From: an uncultured Pseudomonadota bacterium | Lineage (GTDB): Bacteria > CALINM01 | Length of the DNA: 64,000 nt | Direction: 5' to 3' | Assembly (NCBI GenBank): GCA_964540515.1 | Contig: CAZIMS010000010.1 | Location: forward strand, 6,395 to 70,394 | In this document: one piece after another, positions 9,891-47,618 of the stretch | Position numbering within the stretch: position 1 is the stretch's first letter | Layout of the letters: every line of letters begins with the position of its first letter | The notes under the pieces: generated by a model | Seen by the model: only the letters and a program-made list of their open reading frames with translations | What the model was told of the DNA's origin: nothing | Database searches by the model: none | Position numbers and translations under genes: made by a program

Positions 9891-9938
9891 TGGAGAATAT
9901 TCTACAAACTTTTTATCTATTTTGTAGAATATTCAACA
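9891..9938. promoter_or_regulatory. tandem enhancer (UAS) palindromes for an NtrC-family activator
   Basis: TGGAGAATATTCTACA (9891-9906) and TGTAGAATATTCAACA (9923-9938): each one mismatch from the palindrome TGTAGAATATTCTACA, 32 bp apart. Confidence 0.65.
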
Positions 9939-9954
9939 CTTGAGAGGGTTTATA

Positions 9955-11298: not shown

Positions 11299-11321
11299 AA
11301 TTTCAATCTCATAACTAATTA

Positions 11322-32692: not shown

Positions 32693-33544
32693 CTAATTTT
32701 GAAAAACTTTTTTAGGAATTCTTGCATTTATCTTATAGTTTTTAAAGTTTACCTCAATCTTTCTTTGTTCTTCTGGTATATCTACACCTTCAGTATATCT
32801 AATTTGTCGAGAGGGTAGATAATATTTTCCAACTTTTGTAAACTCTGTTTTAAAACTACTCTTTAAGGAACCGTCATTAGCTAAAAGATTTATCTCCTCT
32901 ATATATTTTTTGCCTTCCAGCTCAATATATCTAATAGAAAGATCAACAACAACTGAGTTTATTTGATCTTTTTCGTATATCAAGCTCATGCCCTCTAGTA
33001 ACGATTCTTTAGTATTAAACAATATCTCAATATTTTTTATATTTTTTGTTGGAAGTGGTAAGCCTGTTTTAAAAAAAAGTTGACCTATATCTTTTTTTTC
33101 TTTAAAAGAGATTTGAACCCTCTTTATATCTTTATCTTTTGATACAGAAATTTCTGCCTCTTTAAGCAAGGCTTCTCTCTCTTTCTTCATATCCATCGGT
33201 AGAAAAAAACATTTTAGTTCTAATGCAAACTGACTTGACATCCTTTTTGCTTGTTCTTTCATATAGGGGAAAACCTCCTTACCTTCAACCCTAATTACCA
33301 TACCCTTTTTTTTATGCCAATACTTTCTTAAGATAGGTTTTTTAGGTCTATCAAAATCTTCTGGCATTCCAGAGGTCATTTTTTTCATAATATTTTCAAA
33401 CTGCATGGTTTCTACATCACAAATATAACTTTTAATATCTCCTAAACATATATTAGTAGCTTTTTCTATATCAGATAAGGGGGAACCAAAGGAAATTGTA
33501 GTGTAAAACAGCAAGAATAGAGTAATAAGAGTAATTTTTCTCAT
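32693..33544 (-). CDS. exported hypothetical protein
   Basis: Likely start ATG 33544 (SD GGAGG) giving signal peptide MRKITLITLFLLFYTTISFG; beta-rich; no family recognised. Confidence 0.6.
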   Translation of the reverse strand: MRKITLITLFLLFYTTISFGSPLSDIEKATNICLGDIKSYICDVETMQFENIMKKMTSGMPEDFDRPKKPILRKYWHKKKGMVIRVEGKEVFPYMKEQAKRMSSQFALELKCFFLPMDMKKEREALLKEAEISVSKDKDIKRVQISFKEKKDIGQLFFKTGLPLPTKNIKNIEILFNTKESLLEGMSLIYEKDQINSVVVDLSIRYIELEGKKYIEEINLLANDGSLKSSFKTEFTKVGKYYLPSRQIRYTEGVDIPEEQRKIEVNFKNYKINARIPKKVFQN

Positions 33545-33611
33545 AAAAACCTCCTTGAGTCTTTTAATGAAAATATATCTTAGAACTTTAATTTTGTAAA
33601 GTAAGGGAAGG

Positions 33612-34988
33612 CTATTTATCTTTACTAAGAAAACCAAATTTTTTCATTCTATATCTCATAGCATCAACACCTATATTTAAAAGCCTTGCAGCCTTTGACT
33701 GATTACCTTTAGCCATTGCAAGGGCCTGTTTTAACAACTCTCTCTCAACCTCTTCAATATCAATACCAGTCTCTGGCAGCTTAATATCGGATCTGTCTGA
33801 TGGTTGACGAGATGAAGCAGATATTATCTCCAAAGGTAATCTTTCAACCATTATCTGGTCTCTATCTTCAAAAATCATTGCCCTTTCTATAGTATTTTTA
33901 AGCTCCCTTACATTACCAGGCCAATCATAAAGAAGAATCATCTTTTTGGCGATAGGGGAAAAACTTTTTATATTTTTTTTAAATTCTTTATTGAACTGAT
34001 TTATAAAAAACGTTGCGAGTTCTAATATATCATCCTTCCTCTCTCTGAGAGGTGGTACATAGATAGGTACTACTTTTATCCTATAGTATAAATCTTCTCT
34101 GAATTTTTCCTCTTTAACAAGTTTTTTTAAATTTTTATTGGTTGCTGCTATTAACTGAACATCTAATTTAATATCAACAAGCCCACCAAGCCTTCTTACC
34201 GTTCTATCCTCAAGGAATCTAAGAAGTTTAGCCTGAAGAGACATTGGCATATCACCAATCTCATCTAAAAATAATACACCACCGTCTGCAAACTCAATAA
34301 GACCTTCTTTGCTAGACTTTGCATCAGTAAAGGCTCCTTTCTCATAACCAAAAAGCTCAGACTCTAGTAAATTTTCGGGTAAAGATGCACAGTTTATGGC
34401 AATAAATGGTTTATTACTCCTTCGCCCTTCAGTGTGAATTGCCCTTGCAATCAATTCCTTACCTACACCACTTTCTCCTTCCACCAAAACTACCTTAACA
34501 TCAGCAGAAGAAACCCTTTTGATCATGGCTTTGACTTCATTTATCTCTTTACTTATTCCTACAATAGCATTTAACCCATAATTAAATTTATTCTCTTTTC
34601 TGTAATAGTTTAGCTCAGACTGATTTTTTGAAAATTCAATAGCTTTATTAACTATTATTAGAAATTCATCTGAAGAAAAAGGTTTTGTTAAATAATCATA
34701 GGCTCCTAATTTCATCGCCTTTACCGCTGTTTCTATACTACCGTAGGCTGTTATCACAATTACTGGTGTCTCTGGATGTCTCTCTTTTATCATCTGAAGC
34801 ATCTCTAACCCAGTGATATGTGGCATCATCAAATCTACTAATACAAGATCATACTTTGCTAACTCAAGTAGCTTTATTGCTTCCTTTGATGAGCTAGTTG
34901 CTGTTACTTTAAAACCTTGCTTCTCTAACTCAATTGTTATCATATCAAGTATTAGTTTCTCATCATCAACTACAAGTATATTAGCCAT
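33612..34988 (-). CDS. sigma54-dependent response regulator (NtrC family)
   Basis: ILVVDDE, DLVLVDLMMP, GESGVGKE, GAFTDA, WPGNVRELKN, HTH. Confidence 0.92.
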   Translation of the reverse strand: MANILVVDDEKLILDMITIELEKQGFKVTATSSSKEAIKLLELAKYDLVLVDLMMPHITGLEMLQMIKERHPETPVIVITAYGSIETAVKAMKLGAYDYLTKPFSSDEFLIIVNKAIEFSKNQSELNYYRKENKFNYGLNAIVGISKEINEVKAMIKRVSSADVKVVLVEGESGVGKELIARAIHTEGRRSNKPFIAINCASLPENLLESELFGYEKGAFTDAKSSKEGLIEFADGGVLFLDEIGDMPMSLQAKLLRFLEDRTVRRLGGLVDIKLDVQLIAATNKNLKKLVKEEKFREDLYYRIKVVPIYVPPLRERKDDILELATFFINQFNKEFKKNIKSFSPIAKKMILLYDWPGNVRELKNTIERAMIFEDRDQIMVERLPLEIISASSRQPSDRSDIKLPETGIDIEEVERELLKQALAMAKGNQSKAARLLNIGVDAMRYRMKKFGFLSKDK

Positions 34989-35002
34989 AAAATCTCCTAA
35001 CC

Positions 35003-35470
35003 TTACTGAGTTTTCTTAGGTATCGTAACAGTAAACTCCCATTCACTATACCTATTTTTATTCTCAAATTGCCTATATTTATAGGGAAAATTTTTTTTCT
35101 TTAAAGGCTCCCTATCGCTCTTACTTCTAACCCCCTTAATCCTTCCTGTCTCATCTCTAATTATATCCCATTCACCATCTTCTGTCATCGGGTCTTTATA
35201 AATTTTTCTAATATGCCTTTTTATACTTAAAAATCTGTTATCTTTCAATAAATCTTCAAGTCTTCTTGGTAAAAAATTAACACCACCATGCCCACTATTA
35301 TAATAACTTTCCAGTGCCCTAACTATCTGATCTCCCCTAAACAAAAGCTCCTCTTCCTTTTCCCTCTGAACCACTGTTTTCCAAACTTTTCCTGCAGACG
35401 CAAGAGAAATACCAATAAAAAACATGATAATAAGAACAAAAATATAGGTAAAACCTCTATTACCAATCAC
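35003..35470 (-). CDS. minor pseudopilin lacking Glu5 (GspK/PilX-like)
   Basis: Prepilin site RG|FTYIF, hydrophobic helix, KIYKDPMT. Confidence 0.75.
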   Translation of the reverse strand: MIGNRGFTYIFVLIIMFFIGISLASAGKVWKTVVQREKEEELLFRGDQIVRALESYYNSGHGGVNFLPRRLEDLLKDNRFLSIKRHIRKIYKDPMTEDGEWDIIRDETGRIKGVRSKSDREPLKKKNFPYKYRQFENKNRYSEWEFTVTIPKKTQ

Positions 35471-35849
35471 GATAAGGTGTTCCAGAAAGACTTATCTTGT
35501 TACTCCCACTCTTAACATCGTATATACCTTGTTCATCAGGTATTGGGGAGTTTACTAAAATCCAAGTAGTATTAGACTCAGTAAAGGGGTCTTTAGGAAT
35601 TGTCCTTAAATAGCCTTTAGTAACAAGGTCATCAAGTGTAGCTGGATATTTTTGATTATCAGCATAATACTGATCAATGGCGCTTCTTATAGCAAATAGG
35701 TTCTCCTTTAAAACTGTCTCTTTAGCTTTTATAACTGAGTTTTTATAGGTAGGCTGAGCAATAGTTAAAAGTATGCCTATAATAGACACAACTATTATTA
35801 ATTCAAGGATAGTAAAACCTTTTTTACCAATCTTTGTAGTAGGTACCAT
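35460..35849 (-). CDS. GspG/OxpG-like pseudopilin
   Basis: KG|FTILEL, AIDQYYAD..KYP, GYLRTIPKDPFT. Confidence 0.85.
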   Translation of the reverse strand: MVPTTKIGKKGFTILELIIVVSIIGILLTIAQPTYKNSVIKAKETVLKENLFAIRSAIDQYYADNQKYPATLDDLVTKGYLRTIPKDPFTESNTTWILVNSPIPDEQGIYDVKSGSNKISLSGTPYRDW

Positions 35850-36315
35850 CTATAGCCTTTTCCTCGCTTAAAGAATATACATCAAAGACATCATCGCCCT
35901 CTTTAGGATTATCTGGTTCACTATTATAACTTCTAATACCCCATGTCTCTTCAGGCTCTTTAGTATAATCTGTATTAAAGGGATCTCTCGGTATCTTTCT
36001 TAAAAAATAAATTTTCTTTCCAGGTACGGGTGATGAGATATCTTCAACCCCTTCAACAAGTGTTTTGAGATCCGGAGGATAACCAGAAGCTCCTAATTTT
36101 TGGAAAATCCTCTTTTCATCATAAGCTCTTTTATAATCATCAATCGCCTTTCTTATTATCCTCAAATTGTATCTTAACTCCATCTCTTTTGTTCTTTTAA
36201 TAGTCATCCTTGCAACAGGAAATACTGCCGATGCAAGGATAGCGAGCACCGCAACAGCAACAACAAGCTCTATTAAAGTAACTCCTTTCTTACCTCTAAC
36301 CTCCATAAAAATCAT
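35824..36315 (-). CDS. GspG-like pseudopilin
   Basis: KG|VTLIEL, RKAIDDYK, FLRKIPRDPF, DVYSLS. Confidence 0.85.
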   Translation of the reverse strand: MIFMEVRGKKGVTLIELVVAVAVLAILASAVFPVARMTIKRTKEMELRYNLRIIRKAIDDYKRAYDEKRIFQKLGASGYPPDLKTLVEGVEDISSPVPGKKIYFLRKIPRDPFNTDYTKEPEETWGIRSYNSEPDNPKEGDDVFDVYSLSEEKAIDGTYYKDW

Positions 36316-36379
36316 TTATTTATGCCTATAACTCATATTATTGGCAGTAATCATATTATTATCAATTTTTTGTTTATCA

Positions 36380-38668
36380 CTATCTAATATCTATTATAGC
36401 ACCACTACTTCTTAATGTGTAAACCTTACCATTCATTAGTCTTACCTTGACGCTGGAGAGGCTAACTGCTTCAATATTCAACCCTTTATTTCTACCTTTT
36501 AACAAAATTCTACCTACTGAGACATTAGGCGGTAGTTCATCGTCAAATCTACCGTATATCTTAAAGATACCACCCTTTTGATCAAAATTTACTTTATAAA
36601 TATCGTTATCACTTCTTTTTAAATCTTCTTCTAAAAACTTAGTGGCCTCTACAAAGGCCCCATTAAAAGTCCCTGAAATCTCAAACTCAACTATGTCATC
36701 TACACCAAAAATAATTAAGTCAACTCCAAACTCCTCACCTACTGCTGCTGATTCAGGACCAATTGCTATGGCGTAAGCATTCTCACCACTAATCTGTCCT
36801 TCTACCTTACCTGTTATTGTTTCTCTTCTCTGACTTGCCTCATCAATTTCCTGACTTTCTATAACAGATCTCAACATAGGTTTTGCAGAAAGTCTATCCT
36901 CTGTACCAGACCAGATATTGGTTAGGTCAGCCGTAGGATATATCACCCCTTTTGTAATTCTCGGAGTTATAGATACAAATATATCAGCCTGATCTATTTT
37001 ATTAGTGTAGCTTGTAAATAGTGAACCTATTATTGGTATATCGCTCAAGAAGGCTATACCTGACCTTGCCCTTTCCAATCTATTCTGAATTAACCCACCT
37101 AAAACTGTGGTCTCTCCATCTCTCACCCTTAAAGTAGTCTTTGCGTTTCTTGTGCCTATCCTATAGACTGTTGTTCCATTTAGTGTTTTTGACTCACTTA
37201 CAATGTTACTAACTTCTGCCTCTATCTTTAACTCAACCTCATCATTTGAGAGTATCTTTGGCTCTACATTAAACTTAACACCTACATCAACATATTGAAC
37301 ATTCTCTGACCTCTGGTCAGCGCCGCTAACAGTAACAGTTATAACAGGCACTCTGTCACCCACGAGAACTTGAGATTTGCCACCGTCAAGAGTTTTTATC
37401 TGAGGGTTTGCCAAAGTCTTAGTTACACCGTTCTGCTTAAGAAAATTTATAGTAATATAGGGCAACGTAAATAGTATGTTTCTATTTATCTTTGCTATCT
37501 CAAGGTCTCTTATAGTAAGAAGGGTATCGCCAGTTCTTACGGAAACATTAGAGTTTTCTACTATCGAACTTGGATTTCTCCCTTTTCCAAAGCCTGCTCC
37601 TATTGAGTAGGGGTTGAAATCCACTCCTAATCTCTCCAAATCATTTCTATTAACCTCAACAAACTCTAGATCAAGCAACACTTCAGCTTTAGCCATGTCG
37701 TTTGCTTGAATAATTTTCTCAGCAAGCTCAAGACTATCTAAGTCTGCCCTAACTATTATAGAGTTTGTGTCCTCATTAACAAAAATCTGCCTTGCTTCTA
37801 TCAAATTTCTCAATGTATTTATCACCTTCTTTGCATCGGCATACTTCAAAAAGAAGGTTCTAATATAATATTCTTCATACTCTTTTCTCTTTTGTTTGTT
37901 GTCAGGATAGACAATGGCATTTTTTTGATTTATCACCTTTAAAGCCAATTTGTTTGTAAAAAGTAATAGCTCCAAGGCTTGCACAAAGGATGCCTCTTCA
38001 ATAAATATTGTAACTTTATTATCTCTTATCTGTTCATCAAAAAGAAAGTTTACGCCTGATAGTTTAGAAAGTATCTCAAAGACGTCTTTAATAGGAGCGT
38101 CTTTAAATTTTAGCGTAACTGGCTTGGCTGATTTAATACTAAGTTCATACTCAAGAGGGCTTTTTATACTCTCTTTTAATAACTTATCGGCAAGATTTTT
38201 CGCCTCTATAAGCTCTGTATTTAGTGAATAGGCCCTTCTTGCTTCATCTATGGCTTCTTTTATCTTGTTTGAAGCATAAAATGTCTTTGCCTTTTCTAAA
38301 CTTAAAAGGGCTTCTTTTTTTATATTAATCTCCTGCAAAAATTCAAAGGCTCTCTTAAAAGTGGGGTCCAATACAAGAACCAGATTAAACTCTTTCTCTG
38401 CCTCGTCAAGATTGCCCTCAGCTATAAGTTTCTTACCTTTATCAAAGTGCATGCGCGCAGAAGCCTCTTTTGCTCTTGTAAGTTTTATAACATACTCAAT
38501 ATCACCAGGACTTTCCTGCAAAGCCTTATTGTAATATGTTATGGCTTCGTCATATTTACCTTGATTCATAAGGGTTTCTGCTGTTCTATAGGCCCTGTAG
38601 GATGAACAAGAAAAAATTATGAAAACAAAGACAAATAAAAATAAAAACTTAATCTTTTTTCTCATCAT
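36380..38668 (-). CDS. secretin (GspD/PilQ-like) lipoprotein with N-terminal TPRs and C-terminal cohesin-like domain
   Basis: Lipobox FSC; TPR helices; STN and N domains; LANPQI, YVDVGVKF, DGETTVLGGL, DIPIIGSLF; C-terminal beta-sandwich. Confidence 0.88.
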   Translation of the reverse strand: MMRKKIKFLFLFVFVFIIFSCSSYRAYRTAETLMNQGKYDEAITYYNKALQESPGDIEYVIKLTRAKEASARMHFDKGKKLIAEGNLDEAEKEFNLVLVLDPTFKRAFEFLQEINIKKEALLSLEKAKTFYASNKIKEAIDEARRAYSLNTELIEAKNLADKLLKESIKSPLEYELSIKSAKPVTLKFKDAPIKDVFEILSKLSGVNFLFDEQIRDNKVTIFIEEASFVQALELLLFTNKLALKVINQKNAIVYPDNKQKRKEYEEYYIRTFFLKYADAKKVINTLRNLIEARQIFVNEDTNSIIVRADLDSLELAEKIIQANDMAKAEVLLDLEFVEVNRNDLERLGVDFNPYSIGAGFGKGRNPSSIVENSNVSVRTGDTLLTIRDLEIAKINRNILFTLPYITINFLKQNGVTKTLANPQIKTLDGGKSQVLVGDRVPVITVTVSGADQRSENVQYVDVGVKFNVEPKILSNDEVELKIEAEVSNIVSESKTLNGTTVYRIGTRNAKTTLRVRDGETTVLGGLIQNRLERARSGIAFLSDIPIIGSLFTSYTNKIDQADIFVSITPRITKGVIYPTADLTNIWSGTEDRLSAKPMLRSVIESQEIDEASQRRETITGKVEGQISGENAYAIAIGPESAAVGEEFGVDLIIFGVDDIVEFEISGTFNGAFVEATKFLEEDLKRSDNDIYKVNFDQKGGIFKIYGRFDDELPPNVSVGRILLKGRNKGLNIEAVSLSSVKVRLMNGKVYTLRSSGAIIDIR

Positions 38669-39221
38669 GTCCCTCTTTTTCTAATCTAAATATTCTTTTA
38701 TCACCTTTTGCATCACTAAGTATGACCTCGGTCTTACTAATTCTTTCAATTACATAGTCGGTATCAAAAACCCTATCCATCTTTTTAAACGATTTTATAT
38801 CATTCCCCTTCTTAAGAAAAGCAAACCTTTTTTCCTTTTTATCCATAATACCTAACAAAACAATATCATTCAACTTGTCTATCTTTATTTCCTGTTTTTT
38901 TTCTTCAACTATTTCTGGCTCCGTTGGCAAAAGGGGCAATGGTGGTGCAGGGATTGGTTCTGGTTTTTTTTCTTTCTGAACTTTCTGAGATGCACTCGTA
39001 TCCTTTATCAAATCAGCAAAAATATCTCTTATAAATTTATATCCAGAAATTTCAGGATATTTAACAGTCTTTTCTTGGGTAACTTTATTATCAATATTTG
39101 TGGTTTTGTCATCAACAGGAACAGCAAGCTTAATCTCCTTCTCCCCTGTGAAAAACACTCTATATAGGATAAGTACTGCCCACAACAGGACTAAAGTTAT
39201 TGCTATATTTTTTTTTGTCAT
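38649..39221 (-). CDS. PilP/GspC-position protein (TM anchor, Pro-rich linker)
   Basis: N-terminal TM, RDIF, PEPIPAPPLPLLP, VLLGIM..FAFL; lies between the PilO-like gene and the secretin. Confidence 0.55.
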   Translation of the reverse strand: MTKKNIAITLVLLWAVLILYRVFFTGEKEIKLAVPVDDKTTNIDNKVTQEKTVKYPEISGYKFIRDIFADLIKDTSASQKVQKEKKPEPIPAPPLPLLPTEPEIVEEKKQEIKIDKLNDIVLLGIMDKKEKRFAFLKKGNDIKSFKKMDRVFDTDYVIERISKTEVILSDAKGDKRIFRLEKEGHDEKKD

Positions 39222-39222
39222 A

Positions 39223-39723
39223 TTAATTTATGCCCTTCAGAAAGGTAATAATAGTAATAGCCCCACTAAGTATATCATTACCTTTCTGAATTTTAAGACT
39301 ATCAATTATTATAAAATGAGAGCCACTTTCCAGCTCATACAAAAACTTTTTTATGCTCTCATACTTACCCTCAACAGTAATATTCAAAGCAAGCTTAGTA
39401 ACGTTTAACTCCTTTCTCTCTTCAAAGTTGTAACTTATGGTCTTTATATCTACATTGCCCATAAAGGATTTTTCGAAGATATAATTAATTATTTTAGTAA
39501 AGTCCTCTTTTGCCCTTAATCTTTTTTCGTAATCACCTATCTTATCTTTTATCTCGTAAATGTCTTGAAAGGAAAGAAGTCTCTCCTTAGCCTTCTTATC
39601 TCTTAGCATCTTATAATCAGAAAGAGATTTTGAGAGTACCTCATCCTTGTGGGGGATATAAAAAAACCATAGCATGATATTAGCAATTATAAGAAAAAAA
39701 AACAAAATTAATAACTTTTTCAA
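39223..39723 (-). CDS. PilO/GspM-like protein
   Basis: TM helix, coiled coil, VEGKYESIKKFLYELE ferredoxin-like fold motif. Confidence 0.7.
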   Translation of the reverse strand: MKKLLILFFFLIIANIMLWFFYIPHKDEVLSKSLSDYKMLRDKKAKERLLSFQDIYEIKDKIGDYEKRLRAKEDFTKIINYIFEKSFMGNVDIKTISYNFEERKELNVTKLALNITVEGKYESIKKFLYELESGSHFIIIDSLKIQKGNDILSGAITIITFLKGIN

Positions 39724-40274: not shown

Positions 40275-41131
40275 GATTCCAGTACCCCAAAACCACAAAT
40301 AAAGGAGGAGGTTTTCTTTTCAGAAGTTTTGTTGACGATCTTATCTTTTATATCAAGGACTCTAATTTTTTCGTTAAAATAGCTTTCTATCCCAATTCTC
40401 TCTAACTCATCAAAAATTACCATCTCCTCGGGCTCAAAATCACCAAACCTCTCCCTTACATTTGCCAACATGCTCATTGTCTCAAAATCTATTCTTGATA
40501 ACTCCAAAGCCCTATCTACCTCTCTAATAGAAATTGGCATATTCTCCTTAATGATAATTTGAGAGAAATATTTTTCCCTTAACCAATAGACAATCCCATT
40601 TTTTGGAAGAGATTTCTCAAAGACGTTCATAAAAGAGAGGGTTGGGGTTGTTATTATTGCAGGTTCTATACCTTTTTCATTTAAAATAACTTCTATAGAC
40701 TTTAAAAATCCCTTAAATGTGGCAACCACCAAGAGCTTTGTCATCTCTTTCTCTTTTTTCAAAGATTGTATTCTTATCTCAACATAATCTTTAGGTATAG
40801 GCATTATTTTTTGTATCTTCCACATTACAAACTCTAAAGCCTCATTCTCGTTTTTAGGATAGGCTTCCACCTCAATAAAGTGATACCAAGAGAGGGCATG
40901 GGGTAAGATAACATTACAATTTTTTAGCTTACAATGAGATTTCTCATTTAACTCTTCTATAGACTCCTTTAATACTCCATAGTTAAGCAATACATCATTT
41001 TCTGTTCTTTCATAAATTTTACTATCCTTTATTTTTACCTTATGTACATCCGAGATAGTATATAACCCCTTCTTAGCCTCTAAACATAAATGTAATAAAT
41101 GCTCACTATCAATCATCATAATGCTATTCAT
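40271..41131 (-). CDS. PilM/GspL-like cytoplasmic actin-fold protein
   Basis: Position after the ATPase; CNVILP, FVMWKIQKIMP, LLVVA, GIEPAII pattern. Confidence 0.6.
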   Translation of the reverse strand: MNSIMMIDSEHLLHLCLEAKKGLYTISDVHKVKIKDSKIYERTENDVLLNYGVLKESIEELNEKSHCKLKNCNVILPHALSWYHFIEVEAYPKNENEALEFVMWKIQKIMPIPKDYVEIRIQSLKKEKEMTKLLVVATFKGFLKSIEVILNEKGIEPAIITTPTLSFMNVFEKSLPKNGIVYWLREKYFSQIIIKENMPISIREVDRALELSRIDFETMSMLANVRERFGDFEPEEMVIFDELERIGIESYFNEKIRVLDIKDKIVNKTSEKKTSSFICGFGVLES

Positions 41132-41134
41132 AAC

Positions 41135-42841
41135 TTATTCCACAAAGGTTACCCTGTTTATCTCTTTCATAGTTGTAACTCCTTCAAAGACCTTTTTTAA
41201 AGCTGCTTCTCTTAAAAAGACAGTCCCTAATTCTTTAGCTTTTTTCTTCAAAACTTGAATAGGGGCCTTCTCGATTATAAGCTCCTTTATCTCATCATTC
41301 AATACTAAAACCTCTCCAATGGCAATTCTACCTTTATACCCTGTATAGGAACACTCAGAGCAACCATAACCCTCATAAAAAACATAATCTTTATATCTAT
41401 CCTCATTCAGTCCTGAAAGTTTAAGAAAATCTGGAACATAGTTAACAGGTTTTTTACAGTTATGACAAAGTTCTCTTATAAGTCTCTGAGCCAAGACACA
41501 GTTTAGAGAGGATACAAAGTTATAAGGAGATATTCCCATATTGAGAAATCTTGCTATAACGTCGAAAATATTGTTGGCGTGGACTGTTGTAAAGACTAAA
41601 TGACCAGTAAGAGCAGACTGAATGGCAATCTGTGCAGTCTCTAAATCCCTAATCTCTCCAACCATAATCTTGTCAGGGTCATGTCTTAATATTGACCTCA
41701 AACCCCTTGCAAAGGTTAAACCCTTTTTCTCATTAACAGGTATCTGAACGACTCCCTTGAGCTGATATTCAACAGGATCTTCAATAGTTACTATCTTATC
41801 CTCTCCAGAGTTTATCTCACTAATGGCTGCATAAAGAGTTGTTGTCTTACCAGAACCAGTGGGGCCCGTAACAAGTATCATTCCATAGGGCTCTCTAATC
41901 TTTTTTCTTAGGGCTTCTACAACTTGATTATCAAATCCTAAATAATCAAGTCGCAAATTTTTCAGATCAATCATAATACTCTCTTTATCAAGCACCCTTA
42001 TTACCGCATCTTCTCCAAAAATCGTAGGTAATATAGATACCCTGAAATCAACGTACTTTGCCTTAATCTTAAGTTTGAATCTTCCGTCCTGAGGTATTCT
42101 CTGTTCGGATATATCAAGGTCAGACATAACCTTTATTCTTGATATAATATTACTTTGATATTTCAGATCAATAGGACCTAAGACCTTCTGAAGGATACCA
42201 TCAATCCTAAAACGGACATAAACACCCTCTTGAGAAGATTCTATATGTATATCGCTGGCTCTCTTGTGCAAGGCATCGTATATAGCCGTATCGATGAGTT
42301 TAACTACTGGACTTGTATCTTCCGTGAGCTTTTCTAAGGAAAGTACTTCTTCTCCCTGATCTGTCTCTTTTACCAATAAAACCTTAAAGTCTTCCGTTAC
42401 ATCTTCAAGAATCTTTGATGAGCTCTCAATCTTAGCTAAGGTCTTATCAATCTTGCTTTTTGGTGATACGATTATCTCAATAGGTTTACCTAAAATCAGG
42501 TTAAGCTCATCAATAGTCAAAACCTTAATTGGGTCAGAAAAGGCAAAATAATATTTTCCATTTTCTTCTTTTAGAAAGATTATCTGATACTTTCGCATTA
42601 AATCTATTGATACACCTGAAGGAAGTTTTTCCGGTAGGGTGTAGCGAGAGAGGTCATCATATGGCAATCTAAGCTGTTCCGCCAGTGACTTATACAAATC
42701 TTCTTCTGTTATAAAACCAAGGTTAATTAATATTGTACCTAACTTCTCTTTACTTTTTTTAGCCTCATCGAGTCCTCTCTTTATTTGTTCTTCCGTTAAT
42801 AAACCCTTTTCTAAGAGAATCTCGCCTATCTTTTTTCTCAA
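41135..42841 (-). CDS. gspE: GspE/PilB assembly ATPase
   Basis: KKIGEILLEKG, ASDIHIE, GPTGSGKTTTLY, TIEDPVEY, LRHDPDKIMVGEIRD, CxxC...CxxC. Confidence 0.92.
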   Translation of the reverse strand: MRKKIGEILLEKGLLTEEQIKRGLDEAKKSKEKLGTILINLGFITEEDLYKSLAEQLRLPYDDLSRYTLPEKLPSGVSIDLMRKYQIIFLKEENGKYYFAFSDPIKVLTIDELNLILGKPIEIIVSPKSKIDKTLAKIESSSKILEDVTEDFKVLLVKETDQGEEVLSLEKLTEDTSPVVKLIDTAIYDALHKRASDIHIESSQEGVYVRFRIDGILQKVLGPIDLKYQSNIISRIKVMSDLDISEQRIPQDGRFKLKIKAKYVDFRVSILPTIFGEDAVIRVLDKESIMIDLKNLRLDYLGFDNQVVEALRKKIREPYGMILVTGPTGSGKTTTLYAAISEINSGEDKIVTIEDPVEYQLKGVVQIPVNEKKGLTFARGLRSILRHDPDKIMVGEIRDLETAQIAIQSALTGHLVFTTVHANNIFDVIARFLNMGISPYNFVSSLNCVLAQRLIRELCHNCKKPVNYVPDFLKLSGLNEDRYKDYVFYEGYGCSECSYTGYKGRIAIGEVLVLNDEIKELIIEKAPIQVLKKKAKELGTVFLREAALKKVFEGVTTMKEINRVTFVE

Positions 42842-42843
42842 AA

Positions 42844-44046
42844 TTACCCTCCCACCGCTCCTGCAAGACTAAAAATTGGTAAATACATTGCTATAACAAT
42901 CACTCCAACTATAAATCCCATAATTATCATAAGAGCTGGCTCAACAAGAGTAGTTATCATCGTTAAGGAATCTACTACAAGATTATCATAATACTCTGCT
43001 ACCTCGTCAAGCATTTCCCAAAGAGAGCCTGTCCCTTCACCAGATTTTATTAGCCTAAGAGCGATAGAAGGAAAGAGGTTGGTATCCTCAAGGGCTAAAG
43101 AGAGGGAGTTACCTTCCTCCACAAGTTTGGTTGCCTTTTTTATCTTTTCAGAAAAACTGGTGTTAGTACCCACATTAGCAGTAATCTTTAAAGCACTAAC
43201 TAAAGGAATGCCTCCCTTTATAATTGCAGAAAGAGTTCTCGCAAAGTTTGAAACAAGATAATTTCTATAGATATTTGAAACGAAAGGAGTTTTAAGCTTT
43301 AGATCATCAAGAAAAAGTCTGCCCTTAAAGGTACTCTTGACTCTGCTTATGACAAAAATTAATAAGACGAGAGCTAAAACTAAAAAAGGTAGTATAACCT
43401 TAAAAATATTTGTCACTTTTAAAAGAATAATTGTTGCTAAAGGCAATTCTACATTTGATTCTAAATAAATTTTACTAAAATTAGGTATTACATAGGTGAA
43501 CAAAAATATTACTGCCGCCACTATAATACATAAAACCATTATGGGGTAAACAGAGGCTGAGACAATCTTTCTACGCATCTCCTCCGTCTTTTTCATAAAT
43601 ACTTGATATTCTTTAAGTCTTTCAACAAGATTACCACCCTTTTCTCCTGCCTTCACGTTTGAGATATAAAGAAGTGGAAAGTACTCAGGAAATTTTTCCA
43701 TTGCTTCTGATAAAGAATATCCCTGGGCAATATCTCTCTTTATACTCTCCAAAACTCTGTAAAAACTCTTTTTTTGTGGCACCTTTTCTATAATAATCTC
43801 TAAAGCTTTGACGAGAGGCTGACCTGCTTTGAGTAAGATATAAAGCTCCTGATTAAATGTTAGGAAATCTCTTATATTGAATCTTCTTTTAGATATAGTA
43901 GATACTGTATAAACTTCTGTGATGTCAAGGAGGAGATATCCATCTTTTGATACAAGATACTTTATCTCTTCGAGAGAATCGGCAAAATATTTTATATAAA
44001 AAACTTTACCAGATTCATCAGCAACCTTACAGTTATAGTATGGCAT
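42844..44046 (-). CDS. gspF: GspF/PilC inner-membrane platform protein
   Basis: LLKAGQPL, GEKGGNL, SASVYP, GEGTGSL, LVEPALMI, MYLPIF. Confidence 0.92.
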   Translation of the reverse strand: MPYYNCKVADESGKVFYIKYFADSLEEIKYLVSKDGYLLLDITEVYTVSTISKRRFNIRDFLTFNQELYILLKAGQPLVKALEIIIEKVPQKKSFYRVLESIKRDIAQGYSLSEAMEKFPEYFPLLYISNVKAGEKGGNLVERLKEYQVFMKKTEEMRRKIVSASVYPIMVLCIIVAAVIFLFTYVIPNFSKIYLESNVELPLATIILLKVTNIFKVILPFLVLALVLLIFVISRVKSTFKGRLFLDDLKLKTPFVSNIYRNYLVSNFARTLSAIIKGGIPLVSALKITANVGTNTSFSEKIKKATKLVEEGNSLSLALEDTNLFPSIALRLIKSGEGTGSLWEMLDEVAEYYDNLVVDSLTMITTLVEPALMIIMGFIVGVIVIAMYLPIFSLAGAVGG

Positions 44047-44048
44047 AT

Positions 44049-44429
44049 TTATTTATTATGACAGGAAAAACAGATTTTGTTTATATCCATCCTTAAAAGT
44101 CTTTTCTCAAAATCTTTATTGCCCTTAGGATGAACATTATGACAGGTATAAGCACAGGTAATCTTTCCTTCTTCATCAAGTGGTAGATTCTCCCTGTTTA
44201 ACCTTGTCTTTACCCCAACTTTATGGGAAGGATGCACATCAGGATGACAAGATTCACAGACCCTGTTAGGTCCATCTTTAAGAGCTTTAGGATTATTTAA
44301 ATCAAGATGACAGTTGTTACAATTGTCTTTTGAAAGATGAAAGTTCTCAGCTAAGGAAAGGCCAACAAAACTATAAAAAAATAAGAAAACCAATAAAGAT
44401 TTAAACACCTTATCCCTCTCACAAAACAA
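44049..44429 (-). CDS. small exported multiheme cytochrome c (3 CxxCH + 1 CX3CH)
   Basis: CNNCH, CESCH, CAYTCH, CFSCH; signal peptide; GTG at 44408 with SD GAGG may be the true start. Confidence 0.88.
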   Translation of the reverse strand: MFCERDKVFKSLLVFLFFYSFVGLSLAENFHLSKDNCNNCHLDLNNPKALKDGPNRVCESCHPDVHPSHKVGVKTRLNRENLPLDEEGKITCAYTCHNVHPKGNKDFEKRLLRMDINKICFSCHNK

Positions 44430-44456
44430 ACCAGTATATTTTACAGAATATTAATC

Positions 44457-45545
44457 TTACTTTGCATAGACCTTAGGACTATGTTCTACATCATGACATT
44501 TAAGATAACAACTACCTCTAAATATCCCCTCGGACTTAAACTCGATTTTATTTGTTGTTGTCTCTCTTTTCACATAATCAGGGTTAAACTCTATCAAAAA
44601 TTTATTCTTTTCAGAGCCGTGTGGGCTGTGACAGGTGCTACAAGAGGTGCCTTTCCAGTTTCTTACCTTGACACCTTCTATATGTTCTCTGTGATAGGGG
44701 AAGCTTTCATTACCCAAGATGCTCTCTTTCCTATGACAGCTATAACATAAATCGTAGTTAGGAATAAGTGTCTCTTCTTTTTTTGTATAGGGTAATATAA
44801 GGATATAATCATTGTTTGAGCCATGCACCCCTTCAACTCTTTTTCCACCCTTTGTATCACTACCATGACAACTACTACATTTAATCATAGTCTCATAGGT
44901 TATACCTTCTTTAAGACTCGGCAAATAATTGTTCTTTCCAACTGCCACAACAGGATGATATGAAGGGTTATTTGGATTAAACTCTCTTAGCTTATTTTTT
45001 TGATAAAAAGGCTTATTTGCGTCTGCTCCATGGCATTTAAAGCAGACTTCATACTCATAATAGGCCTTCTTGACAAACTTACCTTCTATATTAACACCAC
45101 TAACCCCCCAGTGAGGAACCTCTGGAATAGAATCATGAGGACTATGGCAATCAAGACACTCGCTATGTCTTGGCAAATCAGGGTTAGTTACAGGATAAAC
45201 TTCATTATATTTATGTAAACCCTTCCTTTCTACAGGATGTCTATAGGGTTTATCAAAATCGGCGGCCACATTTTTTGCATTTTTTATATTAAGCCTCATC
45301 TTTTCTAACTTTTTAGATGCCCTATGCTTAGGACCGTGACAGGTATAACATTGGACTTCTTCTTCGCTACCTGAGTATCTAATACCTGCGTGACAGGTTT
45401 TACAGCCTCCGGGGTTATTTTCCGATAAAAGATGGGTACCCTTTTTCGTTTGTACTAAAAATTCAATCTCTTCTCTAGTTAAAGAATAGGCATTTATTGC
45501 AAAGCTTAAGATAAATAGACCTGTAAAAAAAATTTTTATCATCAT
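44457..45545 (-). CDS. exported multiheme cytochrome c (7 CxxCH + 1 CX3CH)
   Basis: CKTCH, CYTCH, CLDCH, CFKCH, CSSCH, CYSCH, CSTCH, CYLKCH; signal peptide. Confidence 0.9.
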   Translation of the reverse strand: MMIKIFFTGLFILSFAINAYSLTREEIEFLVQTKKGTHLLSENNPGGCKTCHAGIRYSGSEEEVQCYTCHGPKHRASKKLEKMRLNIKNAKNVAADFDKPYRHPVERKGLHKYNEVYPVTNPDLPRHSECLDCHSPHDSIPEVPHWGVSGVNIEGKFVKKAYYEYEVCFKCHGADANKPFYQKNKLREFNPNNPSYHPVVAVGKNNYLPSLKEGITYETMIKCSSCHGSDTKGGKRVEGVHGSNNDYILILPYTKKEETLIPNYDLCYSCHRKESILGNESFPYHREHIEGVKVRNWKGTSCSTCHSPHGSEKNKFLIEFNPDYVKRETTTNKIEFKSEGIFRGSCYLKCHDVEHSPKVYAK

Positions 45546-45548
45546 TCT

Positions 45549-46403
45549 CTACCTATTGTGGCAATGATTACAAAAACCGTAGTTACTAGCGTTAAAGTGA
45601 GCACAGGACCAATTAGTAAAAGATATTCTCTCCCTCATAAATTTTCCATACTGATTATTATGTGGTTCATGACAAGTAGCGCATTGAATACCTGTGCCAT
45701 TAGGATTAGAACTGCCGTTATAACCTAAATAACCAGTAGGCCTTAAAGGATAAATGGGTTCTCCTGCAACACCATCTACACAATCTATGTTAGTACTTCC
45801 GGCAGTTAATCCATATTTTCCTGTTCCACATATATTATTAGTGCTATTTCTCAACTTCCAAACATCACCGTCGGCAATCTTTTTTGCTATTAAGGCATCT
45901 GTTACAGCTATTGATATAGGATGGGCTGGATGATTTCCTGTGGGATCATTAAAATCAGAACCAAAGTAAATATCAGCAGTGGGAAGAATCTTGCCTTGTA
46001 TATCAACATAGTTAGTGCCTACAACATGTATATTCCCTTTAATCATATCGCCTACTGATACGGTTCCATCATGGCAGGAAAGACAGAGTTTTGAGCCTTT
46101 ATCGGGTTGATTTCTAGGGCTTCTAAGTGTAGCAGAACTAAAGGTGCGATATGTTGCCGTTGATAACTTATGTCCCCATAAAGGTGTGTCTATAGCACCG
46201 TGAGGAACATGACAGAACTTACATATCTGATTTTCATCAACAGCTTTTACCTTAACAACAGGTCTGTCAGTAGAGGTAGTAGCCCAGCTTGCAAGATTAT
46301 GAGGGCTTTTAGAAATAGGAGCGTTCTTTATATCTACAGCCTTAATTGCGGTAGGTATAAGGAAAAGAAGTATCAAGATTGCATATATCAATATATTTCT
46401 CAA
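45549..46403 (-). CDS. OmcE-like exported tetraheme cytochrome c
   Basis: Signal peptide; SPHNL, QICKFCHVPH, PLW, SKLCLSCHDG, HPIS, CATCHEPH, FCNHCHNR in the order and spacing I recall for Geobacter OmcE. Confidence 0.8.
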   Translation of the reverse strand: MRNILIYAILILLFLIPTAIKAVDIKNAPISKSPHNLASWATTSTDRPVVKVKAVDENQICKFCHVPHGAIDTPLWGHKLSTATYRTFSSATLRSPRNQPDKGSKLCLSCHDGTVSVGDMIKGNIHVVGTNYVDIQGKILPTADIYFGSDFNDPTGNHPAHPISIAVTDALIAKKIADGDVWKLRNSTNNICGTGKYGLTAGSTNIDCVDGVAGEPIYPLRPTGYLGYNGSSNPNGTGIQCATCHEPHNNQYGKFMRERISFTNWSCAHFNASNYGFCNHCHNR

Positions 46404-47455
46404 CTATCTTCTCCAAGATATTTTATAATTTGAAGTCTTCTATTCAAACTATCTGTAACATATATATAGTTTTTGTTATCAATAAATATGCCCGAGGGCA
46501 AGTTAAACTGACCTGGAAAAACTCCCTCTTCCCCTAATACAGCAAGCAGTTTCCCCTCCTTACTAAAGACCTGTATAGAATCTTGGAGGCTATCAACTAC
46601 ATATATATTGCCATCTTTATCGGAGCATACACCTTTAGGTCTTTCTAAATTACCATCTCCTTTTCCCATCTGACCTATTGAACCCATGTATTTTCCATTT
46701 AAATCAAAGATTTGTATTCTAAAATTCATACTATCAGTTACATAAAGCTCTTCTTTATTATCATTTACGTAAATATGAGTGGGGTAATTAAACTCGACCT
46801 TTTCTTCACCTCTTGCCCCTATCACTTTAATAGTATCAAAATTTTTATTTAAAACTCTCACATTATGATTAATGGTATCTACTACATAAAATCTCTTTTT
46901 CTTCTCAGAATAGGATATACCACTGGGTCTCCAATTAGTCTCTTTTAATGTTTTACTATCTACAGGATAACCATTTTTATCGTAAATTACAATTCTCTTT
47001 TTTTCAGGATCTGCAACATAGATATAGCCTTCATCATCAACTACTACAGAGGTTGGATAAAATAGTTTATCGCCATCCTTAGTGTCTCTTAAAAAATCTA
47101 CAGTCCCCTTATTAAGATCAAAAACAATAACAGATAATACACCCTGATCAACCACATAAATCCTTTCATCTTTAGCAAAAACCGCATAGGGCTTAACAAA
47201 TTCTATAAAGGGGGATGTCTCTTCTCCTAAAAGCCATTTAAGAAACCTGTCAGTCTTGGTCTCCTTTATCAGATCTTTTTTAAAGTCATTGGCGGTATTT
47301 ATAATTTTTATTAACTCATATCTTGGCTTTGAAGGTGGCGCAGGCCATTTAAGCCCTATAGTGCTATTATAAAAAGATGAAGGGTCACTTACTCCTATAT
47401 GATAAGAACAACCCACTAAAAGTAGAAAGACTAAGAAAAACTTAAGCCTACTCAT
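46400..47455 (-). CDS. NHL-repeat (6-bladed beta-propeller) lipoprotein
   Basis: Lipobox LVGC; repeats FxxPxxIxV, IYVxDxxNxRIQIF. Confidence 0.9.
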   Translation of the reverse strand: MSRLKFFLVFLLLVGCSYHIGVSDPSSFYNSTIGLKWPAPPSKPRYELIKIINTANDFKKDLIKETKTDRFLKWLLGEETSPFIEFVKPYAVFAKDERIYVVDQGVLSVIVFDLNKGTVDFLRDTKDGDKLFYPTSVVVDDEGYIYVADPEKKRIVIYDKNGYPVDSKTLKETNWRPSGISYSEKKKRFYVVDTINHNVRVLNKNFDTIKVIGARGEEKVEFNYPTHIYVNDNKEELYVTDSMNFRIQIFDLNGKYMGSIGQMGKGDGNLERPKGVCSDKDGNIYVVDSLQDSIQVFSKEGKLLAVLGEEGVFPGQFNLPSGIFIDNKNYIYVTDSLNRRLQIIKYLGEDS

Positions 47456-47618
47456 TTGTTTGATATTATATCATAAAATTATTATCTTATAGAGAAAATT
47501 TAAGATTAGACTTTTTACTAATATTATATGTGAAAAGTTGTGCAATCTATTGAAAATACTTATTTTTTGAATTAATCTATGTCTTAAAGTAAAATTTAAC
47601 TTGGGGGTTAAATAAATA

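What the first reader, a model, noticed from the sequence alone, without database searches (positions are those of the whole stretch)
32693..47455. Multiheme-cytochrome (nanowire-like) module transcriptionally fused to a dedicated T2SS
Seen: NHL lipoprotein > OmcE-like tetraheme > 8-heme > 4-heme > gspF > gspE > pilM/N/O/P-like > secretin > 3 pseudopilins > sigma54 regulator > exported protein. All are on the minus strand, mostly overlapping or separated by 2-27 bp (largest gaps about 65 bp), with one terminator at the end. Known: Geobacter OmcE polymerises into conductive filaments, and its oxpG T2SS is needed for Fe(III)-oxide reduction. From memory (unverified), G. sulfurreducens has a similar NHL-cytochrome-pul/oxp arrangement whose cytochromes are not functionally assigned. 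Inference: a self-contained cassette that makes, exports and anchors an extracellular electron-transfer filament, here in an AT-rich lineage not obviously Geobacter.
Basis: partly seen in the sequence, partly recalled or inferred. Interest (0 to 1): 0.9.

Follow-up and report, generated by a model that had tools for sequence, protein, structure and literature searches.

The report
Pul-type secretion operon with multiheme cytochromes
This is a tightly packed operon that joins a lipoprotein and three multiheme cytochromes to a Geobacter-type "Pul/Oxp" type II secretion system; the same arrangement already exists, unstudied, in Geobacter, so it is a new member of a known layout that bears on how electron-carrying cytochromes leave the cell.

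Summary
All 16 genes lie on the minus strand, with gaps of -28 to +27 nt and one of 64 nt. The tetraheme is a full-length OmcE homologue.

- The secretion system is the Pul/Oxp type II system (T2SS) of Desulfuromonadia. Geobacter metallireducens carries the same gene order, component for component.
- Seven of ten related Pul loci carry the NHL-cytochrome block directly upstream of pulF. Three lack it. In Geobacter this T2SS is reported to export the multicopper protein OmpB. It is therefore not a dedicated system.
- NHL > OmcE-like tetraheme > octaheme occurs in many phyla without any T2SS: 1 of 60 informative loci had a GspE/F gene nearby.
- The window's tetraheme groups with the NHL-preceded paralogues, which are often fused to the octaheme. 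It does not group with the filament-forming OmcE clade.
- There is no beta-barrel and no second propeller, unlike canonical omcE clusters.

Best reading: a Pul-type T2SS operon with a co-transcribed cytochrome module that probably reaches the cell surface through it. Polymerisation into a nanowire is possible but unshown.

The host is an uncultured, AT-rich, deltaproteobacteria-like lineage.

Novelty: new member of a known kind. Interest: moderate.

The parts
46400..47455 (-). NHL-repeat six-bladed beta-propeller lipoprotein (signal peptide plus LVGC lipobox). First gene of the operon.
   Evidence: Pfam NHL 3.6e-26 and DUF5128 8.5e-18. N-terminus read. Homologues directly precede the tetraheme in L001, L002, L084, L085, L087 and L088, and in 62 of 80 genome loci.
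45549..46403 (-). OmcE-family tetraheme c-type cytochrome with a Sec signal. It has 4 CxxCH sites and 4 invariant distal His (H35, H68, H161, H248). It belongs to the NHL-preceded paralogue subfamily. Its start overlaps the NHL stop by 4 nt.
   Evidence: 7tfs_A E = 5.9e-15. Profile E = 3.3e-44 over the full length. Invariant columns. Subfamily placement.
44457..45545 (-). Octaheme cytochrome (7 CxxCH plus 1 CX3CH) with a Sec signal. It has no relative of solved structure. Among the cytochromes, it gives the strongest match to the Geobacter cluster.
   Evidence: Pfam Paired_CXXCH_1 2.2e-17 and MtrC/MtrF domain II/IV 9.1e-15. Heme sites. 4e-74 to the L084 protein. Best PDB profile hit only E = 9e-4.
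44049..44429 (-). Small tetraheme cytochrome (3 CxxCH plus 1 CX3CH). The true start is probably GTG 44408. Its stop lies 2 nt before the gspF ATG. It is a variable member: present in L002 and L084, absent from L001, L085 and L087.
42844..44046 (-). GspF/PulF inner-membrane platform protein.
   Evidence: Pfam T2SSF 1.2e-52. 1e-90 to G. metallireducens PulF.
41135..42841 (-). GspE/PulE secretion ATPase. It has an MshEN N-domain, two tandem MshEN-like 24-residue motifs, a Walker A motif and a tetra-Cys motif.
   Evidence: Pfam T2SSE 7.4e-132 and MshEN 2.8e-15. Motifs. 2e-213 to the L084 protein.
38649..41131 (-). Four assembly-platform genes in PilM/N/O/P-like positions: 40271-41131, 39720-40298, 39223-39723 and 38649-39221.
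   Evidence: Only the third hits T2SSM_b/PilO. The first gives a weak TIGR pilM match, 3e-4. Genes at the matching positions in L084-L090 hit PilM_2, PilN and PilO. Direct homology to the window's genes is weak and patchy.
36380..38668 (-). PulQ-type secretin lipoprotein: lipobox IFSC, N-terminal TPR repeats, N0/STN-like domain, secretin core, and a C-terminal extension of about 180 aa.
   Evidence: Pfam Secretin 4.8e-40 plus TPR families. Outside its own clade, its nearest relatives are TPR-secretin-cohesin proteins of Geobacter, Desulfuromonas and Geoalkalibacter at 35-43% identity. The C-terminus matches the cohesin region of P0178 only weakly, 4e-4.
35003..36315 (-). Three pseudopilins at the PulG, OxpG and TklG positions: 35824-36315, 35460-35849 and 35003-35470. 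All have a G|(F/V)T prepilin cleavage site. The third lacks Glu5.
   Evidence: Pfam N_methyl and T2SSG. Cleavage sites. Homologues in L084-L088. Names from PMC3543383.
33612..34988 (-). NtrC-type sigma54-dependent response regulator with no adjacent histidine kinase. It is a conserved terminal gene of the cassette in L085, L088 and L089.
   Evidence: Pfam Sigma54_activat 5.6e-69, Response_reg and HTH_8..
32693..33544 (-). Exported protein of unknown function. It probably has its own ribosome-binding site and promoter, and is followed by the terminator hairpin. It is probably not a core cassette member.
   Evidence: No Pfam or NCBIfam hit. Start and ribosome-binding site. Promoter-like site at 33600-33572. 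Homologue 3 kb outside the cassette in L089. Hairpin.

Best explanation
**What it is.** This is an orthologue of the Pul/Oxp 'atypical' type II secretion operon of Geobacter and other Desulfuromonadia. It comprises PulF, PulE, a PilMNOP-like platform, the TPR-lipoprotein secretin PulQ, and the pseudopilins PulG, OxpG and TklG. At its 5' end it carries the same optional module that most Geobacter-type Pul clusters carry: an outer-membrane NHL beta-propeller lipoprotein, an OmcE-family tetraheme, an uncharacterised octaheme and a small tetraheme.

**How it most likely works (inferred).**
- The cytochromes are exported to the periplasm by Sec and loaded with heme there.
- One or more of them, most plausibly the OmcE-like tetraheme and/or the octaheme, is then pushed through the PulQ secretin as a folded holoprotein by the pseudopilus. 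Shewanella MtrC and OmcA take this route through their T2SS (my own knowledge, not checked here).
- The NHL lipoprotein acts as an outer-membrane scaffold or chaperone for them.
- The small tetraheme acts as a periplasmic relay.

**Operon and control.** In this lineage the cytochrome block and the secretion genes are translationally coupled into one transcription unit, with a 2-nt gap. Expression may be controlled by the cassette's sigma54 response regulator. ATPase activity may respond to c-di-GMP through the MshEN domain.

**Open point.** Whether the tetraheme polymerises outside the cell is left open.
For: **Shown**
- Gene content and tight packing.
- Homology of most components, and the same gene order, with G. 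metallireducens RCH3. The PilN- and PilP-position genes match by position only. E-values: NHL 6e-53, tetraheme 3e-14, octaheme 4e-74, small cytochrome 4e-18, F 1e-90, E 2e-213, secretin 2e-127, pseudopilins 1e-44 and 9e-39.
- The same layout in L001/L089, L002, L085, L087, L088 and L090.
- In the window's clade the whole unit sits in three different genomic neighbourhoods: gltB/carboxyltransferase, his/AFOR and pst/phoU. It therefore moves as one block.
- All three cytochromes have signal peptides, and the NHL protein and the secretin have lipoboxes.
- The tetraheme keeps all 4 CxxCH sites and 4 distal His of OmcE.

**From the literature**
- Deleting T2SS-adjacent pseudopilin genes in D. ferrophilus removes short, straight filaments earlier reported as conductive.
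Against: - Pul-type T2SS loci exist without any NHL or cytochrome genes: L086, L091 and L092.
- The triad exists without a T2SS in nearly all other genomes sampled: 1 of 60 informative loci had GspE/F, and that one was in a pilB/pilT/pilC-like set 6 kb away. Neither part strictly needs the other.
- In Desulfuromonadia-type loci the cytochrome block and pulF are 101-197 nt apart. In G. sulfurreducens, pulF has its own promoter region bound by the GSU1771 regulator.
- A survey of Desulfuromonadia cytochromes lists the GSU1786 group among periplasmic cytochromes.
- No sigma54 promoter was found in the leader.
- The cassette holds no prepilin peptidase.
- Nothing here shows localisation.
Confidence: 0.5

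Rival explanations
1. The tetraheme is a true nanowire subunit. The T2SS exports it, it polymerises head-to-tail through His-to-heme ligation between subunits as OmcE does, and the NHL lipoprotein anchors the filament. The cassette would then be a self-contained nanowire factory.
For: - Full-length OmcE homology, with all eight heme-ligating His conserved, including the N-terminal His35.
- OmcE filaments use a His from the adjacent subunit.
- Beta-propeller lipoproteins are typical of omcE clusters.
- Pili have been proposed to act as T2SS-like pistons for secreting nanowire cytochromes.
Against: - The tetraheme groups with NHL-preceded paralogues (median 84-87 bits). OmcE itself scores 56.9 bits and ranks 98th of 134.
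- In most phyla this domain is fused to an octaheme in a single protein, and it sits in clusters that also hold a separate solo OmcE-like gene. That suggests an accessory role.
- The canonical beta-barrel and second propeller are missing (one search compared).
- The conserved His residues do not discriminate, because they are invariant across the whole family.
- The AlphaFold2 model was unusable, at pLDDT 47.8.
Confidence: 0.2
2. Neighbours by co-regulation only. The Pul T2SS is a general secretion system whose cargo includes multicopper oxidases. The NHL protein and the cytochromes form a periplasmic or inner-leaflet electron-transfer complex that never passes through the secretin. The two sets sit together because both serve growth on insoluble electron acceptors.
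For: - T2SS without the cytochrome block in 3 of 10 loci.
- The triad without a T2SS in most phyla.
- Separate pulF promoter in Geobacter.
- The GSU1786 group is listed among periplasmic cytochromes.
- OmpB is the only reported Pul substrate.
Against: - The block is inserted at exactly the same place, directly upstream of pulF, in lineages whose secretins are only 35-43% identical.
- In the window's clade it is translationally coupled to gspF, and the unit moves as one block between genomic contexts.
- Elsewhere the triad accompanies outer-membrane export or anchor proteins in nanowire clusters.
Confidence: 0.25
3. The pseudopilins themselves, OxpG-like in particular, form an aromatic-rich conductive fibre, and the cytochromes charge it.
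For: - G. sulfurreducens OxpG met sequence thresholds for putative e-pilins in one survey.
- Mature pseudopilins here contain 10.2-13.4% F/Y/W.
- Pseudopilin deletions remove short, straight filaments in D. ferrophilus.
Against: - These are ordinary-length pseudopilins (118-152 aa mature), not truncated e-pilins.
- In that same survey, OxpG fell on the branch with the outgroup, away from the known e-pilins.
- There is no evidence that T2SS pseudopili extend beyond the secretin under native expression (general knowledge).
Confidence: 0.05

Closest known systems
Geobacter Pul/Oxp atypical type II secretion cluster (G. sulfurreducens pulF-pulE-...-pulQ-pulG-oxpG with the adjacent cytochromes GSU1785 and GSU1786; seen directly here in G. 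metallireducens RCH3, locus L084)
   Same: Same gene order. Most components are homologous; the PilN- and PilP-position genes match by position only: NHL-like lipoprotein, tetraheme, octaheme, small cytochrome, PulF, PulE, PilMNOP-like platform, TPR-lipoprotein secretin and pseudopilins.
   Different: - The host is an uncultured AT-rich lineage. Its CarB is 68-70% identical to the nearest named taxa shown.
- The cytochrome block is fused to gspF with a 2-nt gap, against about 100-200 nt in Desulfuromonadia-type loci.
- The upstream GT2 and 61-aa membrane protein pair is missing.
- There is no ftsEX/envC/ctpA neighbourhood.
- A sigma54 regulator is attached.
- Pfam does not detect a cohesin domain in the secretin's C-terminus.
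Canonical omcE nanowire gene cluster (Desulfuromonadia and other phyla): two multiheme cytochromes, two beta-propeller lipoproteins, OmcE and a large beta-barrel (bioRxiv 10.1101/2025.10.22.684050)
   Same: Both have an OmcE-family tetraheme next to a beta-propeller lipoprotein and further multiheme cytochromes. The NHL > OmcE-like > octaheme triad appears to match one half of such clusters, as in L013.
   Different: - No beta-barrel, and only one propeller.
- No solo tetraheme of the OmcE clade.
- A T2SS sits in the position where those clusters would carry the proposed porin-type export or anchor protein.
- The tetraheme is a paralogue, not an OmcE orthologue.
osc (omcS-companion) cluster for OmcS nanowires (Shen et al. 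2025, as summarised in PMC13194489)
   Same: The concept is shared: a filament-type cytochrome encoded beside its own folding and secretion helpers, plus paralogous cytochromes.
   Different: - The cytochrome family differs (OmcS, hexaheme).
- Secretion there is assigned to OscE, OscF and OscG, described as porin-like, not to a T2SS.
- No homology was tested here.
Shewanella T2SS-dependent surface display of MtrC and OmcA (my own knowledge, not checked here)
   Same: It is a precedent for folded multiheme cytochromes crossing the outer membrane through a T2SS. The octaheme here gives a Pfam match to MtrC/MtrF domain II/IV.
   Different: - The Shewanella gsp genes are canonical (GspC to GspN) and are not fused to the cytochrome genes.
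- That system has no NHL lipoprotein and no OmcE-family member.

Membership tests
OmcE-family tetraheme cytochromes | Four CxxCH heme-binding motifs in a protein of about 220-290 aa | tested here: met
   CxxCH at residues 61, 107, 241 and 278 of 284.
OmcE-family tetraheme cytochromes | Four additional conserved heme-ligating His, including one near the mature N-terminus | tested here: met
   H35, H68, H161 and H248 are invariant in 36 homologues and align with OmcE residues in the profile alignment. Which of them ligates the neighbouring subunit was not established here.
OmcE-family tetraheme cytochromes | Full-length sequence homology to the solved OmcE filament subunit | tested here: met
   7tfs_A E = 5.9e-15. 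Profile E = 3.3e-44 covering residues 11-231 of 232. 9yuq_N E = 7.2e-27.
OmcE nanowire subunit (orthologue of the filament-forming clade) | Groups with OmcE itself rather than with paralogues | tested here: not met
   In a neighbour-joining tree and in phmmer ranks, the window protein sits with the NHL-preceded solo or fused forms. OmcE ranks 98th of 134 at 56.9 bits, against a median of 84-87 bits for those forms. Caveats: the tree has no bootstrap support, and the loci were chosen by similarity to the query.
OmcE nanowire subunit (orthologue of the filament-forming clade) | Cluster context of a large outer-membrane beta-barrel plus two beta-propeller lipoproteins | tested here: not met
   There is one NHL gene and no beta-barrel candidate in the cassette. 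A T2SS is present instead.
OmcE nanowire subunit (orthologue of the filament-forming clade) | Polymerises into an extracellular filament | not testable with these tools
   The AlphaFold2 monomer model was unusable at pLDDT 47.8. No heme-aware or multimer prediction was available.
Geobacter-type Pul/Oxp type II secretion system | PulE ATPase and PulF platform protein | tested here: met
   Pfam T2SSE 7.4e-132 and T2SSF 1.2e-52. 2e-213 and 1e-90 to the G. metallireducens proteins.
Geobacter-type Pul/Oxp type II secretion system | PilM/N/O/P-like assembly proteins in place of GspC/L/M | tested here: inconclusive
   Positions and sizes match. Only the PilO-like gene hits Pfam directly. The PilM-like gene matches weakly, at 3e-4. 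Genes at the same positions in Geobacter-type loci hit PilM_2, PilN and PilO, and direct matches to the window genes are weak and partial.
Geobacter-type Pul/Oxp type II secretion system | TPR-bearing secretin lipoprotein (PulQ type), usually with a C-terminal cohesin domain | tested here: met
   The lipobox, TPR repeats and secretin core are present. The nearest outgroup relatives are Desulfuromonadia TPR-secretin-cohesin proteins. The cohesin part itself is inconclusive: a pairwise match of only 4e-4 and no Pfam hit.
Geobacter-type Pul/Oxp type II secretion system | Two or three pseudopilins (PulG, OxpG, TklG) directly after the secretin | tested here: met
   Three genes with prepilin cleavage sites. 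They are homologous to the corresponding genes of L084-L088. Names.
Geobacter-type Pul/Oxp type II secretion system | [quoted passage not shown] | not testable with these tools
   This is reported for G. sulfurreducens in the literature only.
Canonical Gsp type II secretion system | GspC and GspL, the minor pseudopilins GspH/I/J/K, and the GspO peptidase in the cluster | tested here: not met
   No such families were detected among the cassette proteins. Whether a prepilin peptidase lies elsewhere in the genome was not tested.

The most novel reading that the evidence does not exclude
The NHL lipoprotein + OmcE-like tetraheme + octaheme triad may be an ancient, portable extracellular electron-transfer 'cargo' module. 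Different lineages would have plugged it into alternative outer-membrane machines: a porin-like beta-barrel in most phyla, and a Pul-type T2SS in Desulfuromonadia and in this AT-rich lineage. In this lineage the two are welded into one transcript. If so, the OmcE-like paralogue would be a T2SS-secreted cytochrome, possibly a new filament type or a filament base or adaptor. The cassette would then give a direct genetic handle on the unresolved question of how cytochrome nanowires cross the outer membrane.
Probability: 0.25. Interest if true: 0.8.

Novelty: new member of a known kind. Interest (0 to 1): 0.5.

Why it matters
How multiheme 'nanowire' cytochromes get out of the cell is unsettled. 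One proposal is a pilus or T2SS-like piston. Another is a porin-type pathway.

This cassette, together with its Geobacter counterpart, shows that an OmcE-family cytochrome module is repeatedly placed directly in front of a specific T2SS. In one lineage it is translationally coupled to that T2SS. Elsewhere the same module sits in clusters described as carrying beta-barrel proteins. I found no paper in the held library that discusses this link.

The same cluster exists in genetically tractable Geobacter species, so the idea can be tested at once.

It does not define a new kind of system. The layout has been visible in annotated Geobacter genomes for years.

Tried and rejected
- **AlphaFold2 on the tetraheme.** A run with a 36-sequence alignment gave pLDDT 47.8 and pTM 0.42. 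That is too poor for a fold search, so none was run.
- **Rfam.** A scan of the whole window found nothing.
- **Sigma54 promoter.** A -24/-12 scan found no site in the operon leader. The sigma70 and terminator consensus scans were at or below chance level: 63 sites against 59 expected, and 5 against 8.5 expected.
- **Curated families.** NCBIfam gave no hit above its curated cut-off for the cytochromes, the platform proteins, the third pseudopilin or the last gene.
- **Octaheme structure.** A profile search of the octaheme against the PDB found no real relative; the best hit was E = 9e-4 over about 26 residues.
- **Genome scan.** Close relatives came instead from exact-protein look-ups.
- **Missing look-ups.** Desulfuromonas sp. 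DDH964 could not be looked up. The OmcE structure paper is not held.
- **Taxonomy.** A CarB search gave only uncultured genomes labelled 'Proteobacteria bacterium' (the named one at 91%). Identity to the nearest named taxa shown is 68-70%, so no precise placement was possible.
- **Rejected reading.** I considered a type IV pilus or competence system. There is no PilT-like ATPase, the nearest secretin relatives are Desulfuromonadia PulQ-type proteins, and the gene order matches the Pul cluster.

Full report
**Observation**

The region 32693-47455 holds sixteen consecutive minus-strand ORFs. Pfam assigns them as follows:
- an NHL six-bladed beta-propeller;
- three c-type cytochromes;
- T2SSF;
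- T2SSE with an MshEN domain;
- a PilO/T2SSM_b-like protein flanked by three small ORFs with no family match;
- a secretin with N-terminal TPR repeats;
- three N-methyl (prepilin-type) proteins;
- an NtrC-type sigma54 response regulator;
- a protein with no family match.

The flanking genes are housekeeping genes: a carboxyltransferase downstream and a divergently oriented glutamate synthase upstream.

Gaps range from -28 to +27 nt, apart from 64 nt between the secretin and the first pseudopilin. The small cytochrome's stop lies 2 nt before the gspF ATG.

A strong hairpin follows the last stop codon: -15.2 kcal/mol, z = -3.96. Internal terminator-like sites are fewer than chance would give.

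Heme sites number 4 in the tetraheme, 7 plus one CX3CH in the octaheme, and 3 plus one CX3CH in the small cytochrome. The NHL protein and the secretin carry lipoboxes, and the cytochromes carry Sec signal peptides. The likely true starts are 33544 for the last gene and 44408 for the small cytochrome.

**The tetraheme**

It matches the OmcE filament subunit 7tfs_A at E = 5.9e-15. A 36-member family profile matches OmcE over its whole length at E = 3.3e-44. The same profile matches a second chain, 9yuq_N (16 chains in one entry), at 7.2e-27. All four CxxCH motifs and four further His residues (H35, H68, H161, H248) are invariant. This fits the eight heme-ligating His described for OmcE homologues. 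It also fits the fact that a His from the adjacent subunit ligates a heme in OmcE filaments. Membership of the OmcE family is therefore met.

**The secretion system**

Outside the window's own clade, the secretin's closest relatives are TPR-secretin-cohesin proteins at 35-43% identity. They come from Geobacter metallireducens, Desulfuromonas, Geoalkalibacter and Trichloromonadaceae.

The G. metallireducens RCH3 locus reads GT2 > 61-aa protein > NHL-like > tetraheme > octaheme > small cytochrome > T2SSF > T2SSE > PilM > PilN > PilO > PilP-like > secretin > pseudopilins. Every window component except the PilN- and PilP-like genes finds its counterpart there.

Published work supports the naming:
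- PulE is GSU1783.
- GSU1785 and GSU1786 are cytochromes.
- The pulGPQF genes encode the T2SS linked to OmpB secretion.
- The Pul pseudopilins are named PulG, OxpG and TklG.

The system is the Pul/Oxp T2SS, not a canonical Gsp system.

**How firm the link is**

I examined ten related Pul-type loci.
- Seven carry the NHL-cytochrome block immediately upstream of pulF: L001/L089, L002, L084, L085, L087, L088 and L090.
- Three lack the block: L086, L091 and L092.

In Desulfuromonadia-type loci the block lies 101-197 nt from pulF. G. sulfurreducens pulF has its own promoter region, bound by the GSU1771 regulator. In the window's clade the gap is 2-36 nt.

In that clade the whole unit sits in three unrelated neighbourhoods. 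This argues that it moves, and is selected, as one block.

Conversely, I scanned one genome per species with the tetraheme profile, which returned 80 loci from many phyla.
- An NHL gene directly precedes the OmcE-like gene in 62 of them.
- Only 1 of the 60 loci with enough downstream sequence has any GspE/F gene, and that one is in a pilB/pilT/pilC-like set 6 kb away.

The T2SS is therefore not dedicated to the cytochromes, and the cytochrome triad does not depend on a T2SS encoded next to it. The association is nonetheless recurrent and position-specific.

**Which OmcE-like protein this is**

I extracted 133 OmcE-like domains from all loci and added OmcE. A neighbour-joining tree and phmmer scores separate two broad groups.
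- Solo tetrahemes that are usually followed by an NHL gene. This group includes OmcE.
- Tetrahemes that follow an NHL gene. These are either solo and followed by an octaheme, or fused to it in one protein.

The window protein, like all the T2SS-linked ones, belongs to the second group. OmcE scores 56.9 bits and ranks 98th of 134, against medians of 84-87 bits for the second group.

Clusters such as L013 contain both types, together with further cytochromes and two unknown proteins. That pattern resembles the canonical omcE cluster described in the literature: two multiheme cytochromes, two propellers, OmcE and a beta-barrel. The window module thus looks like the accessory half of a nanowire cluster, joined here to a T2SS in place of a beta-barrel.

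Three caveats apply. The tree has no support values. The loci were selected by similarity to the query. The Geobacter-type T2SS-linked tetrahemes are themselves very divergent from the window's, at 44-70 bits.

**Mechanism**

The best-supported reading is a Pul-type T2SS operon with a co-transcribed cytochrome module. One or more members of that module reach the cell surface through the secretin as folded holoproteins. The NHL lipoprotein would act as an outer-membrane scaffold.

The steps that are shown are gene identity, orthology with the Geobacter cluster, packing, and export signals. The steps that are inferred are T2SS dependence, surface localisation, the scaffold role, and regulation. 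Confidence is 0.5.

The nanowire version (0.2) is weakened by the paralogue placement and by the missing beta-barrel and second propeller. The co-regulation-only version (0.25) is supported by the facultative nature of the link. It is weakened by the identical insertion point across deep divergence and by the translational coupling here. A conductive pseudopilus (0.05) is unlikely.

**Host**

Proteins at 90% identity or more come from an uncultured genome labelled 'Proteobacteria bacterium'. CarB is 68-70% identical to the nearest named relatives shown, mostly deltaproteobacterial or Thermodesulfobacteriota genomes plus Geomonas. GC content is 32-38%. 'Not Geobacter' is right, but the affinity is with the same broad group.

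**Novelty and interest**

The layout is present in annotated Geobacter genomes, so this is a new member of a known kind. I found no paper in the held library that discusses the NHL-cytochrome-Pul link. The link bears on the open question of how nanowire cytochromes are secreted, and it can be tested in Geobacter. Interest: 0.5.

Noticed in passing
window 41135-42841 (-), N-terminal residues 4-56 of GspE/PulE: Two 24-residue MshEN-like motifs lie 5 residues apart: KIGEILLEKGLLTEEQIKRGLDEA and KLGTILINLGFITEEDLYKSLAEQ. From my own knowledge, this is the arrangement reported for c-di-GMP-binding MshEN domains. The secretion ATPase may therefore be gated by c-di-GMP.
   Followed up: partly
L001/L089, L084-L087, L090 (upstream of the NHL gene); absent from window 1-64000: A family-2 glycosyltransferase and a 61-aa two-helix membrane protein precede the cassette in most relatives. 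They are present even in L086, which has no cytochromes. No homologue exists anywhere in the window.
   Followed up: partly
L004-L083, e.g. L013:10001-11653, L005:9404-12535: In many of the sampled phyla (for example Planctomycetota, Verrucomicrobiota and Beta/Gammaproteobacteria), the OmcE-like tetraheme domain is fused to the octaheme-like domain in one long ORF right after the NHL gene. Here and in Nitrospirota they are separate genes.
   Followed up: partly
window 47456-47618 (leader of the NHL gene): An extended -10 element (TGATATAAT) ends only about 12 nt before the NHL ATG, and there is no Shine-Dalgarno sequence. This suggests a very short or absent leader. No sigma54 -24/-12 match is present, even though the cassette carries a sigma54 activator.
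   Followed up: partly
window 32693-33544 (-) and L089:18300-19274: The exported protein that ends the string has its own strong ribosome-binding site and a promoter-like site. It matches no known family. In a relative its homologue (1e-66) lies 3 kb beyond the cassette, across an opposite-strand ABC transporter.
   Followed up: partly
window 36380-36949 (-), last ~180 residues of the secretin: This C-terminal extension has no Pfam hit. It aligns weakly (E = 4e-4) with the start of the cohesin domain carried by Geobacter-type PulQ secretins. A cohesin on a secretin is itself unexplained.
   Followed up: partly
window 53663-56719 (+): A 1018-aa protein with two DUF7933 domains and one DUF7507 domain.
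   Followed up: no
window 29594-30739 (+): SfsA (OB plus nuclease domain) is fused to a DUF123 domain in one 381-aa ORF.
   Followed up: no
window 4015-12455 (-): A CusCBA-like RND efflux operon (outer-membrane factor, HlyD-type adaptor with a heavy-metal-binding domain, AcrB-type pump) sits next to a histidine kinase and a second sigma54 response regulator. That kinase is the only one found in the window so far. The cassette's own regulator has no adjacent kinase.
   Followed up: no
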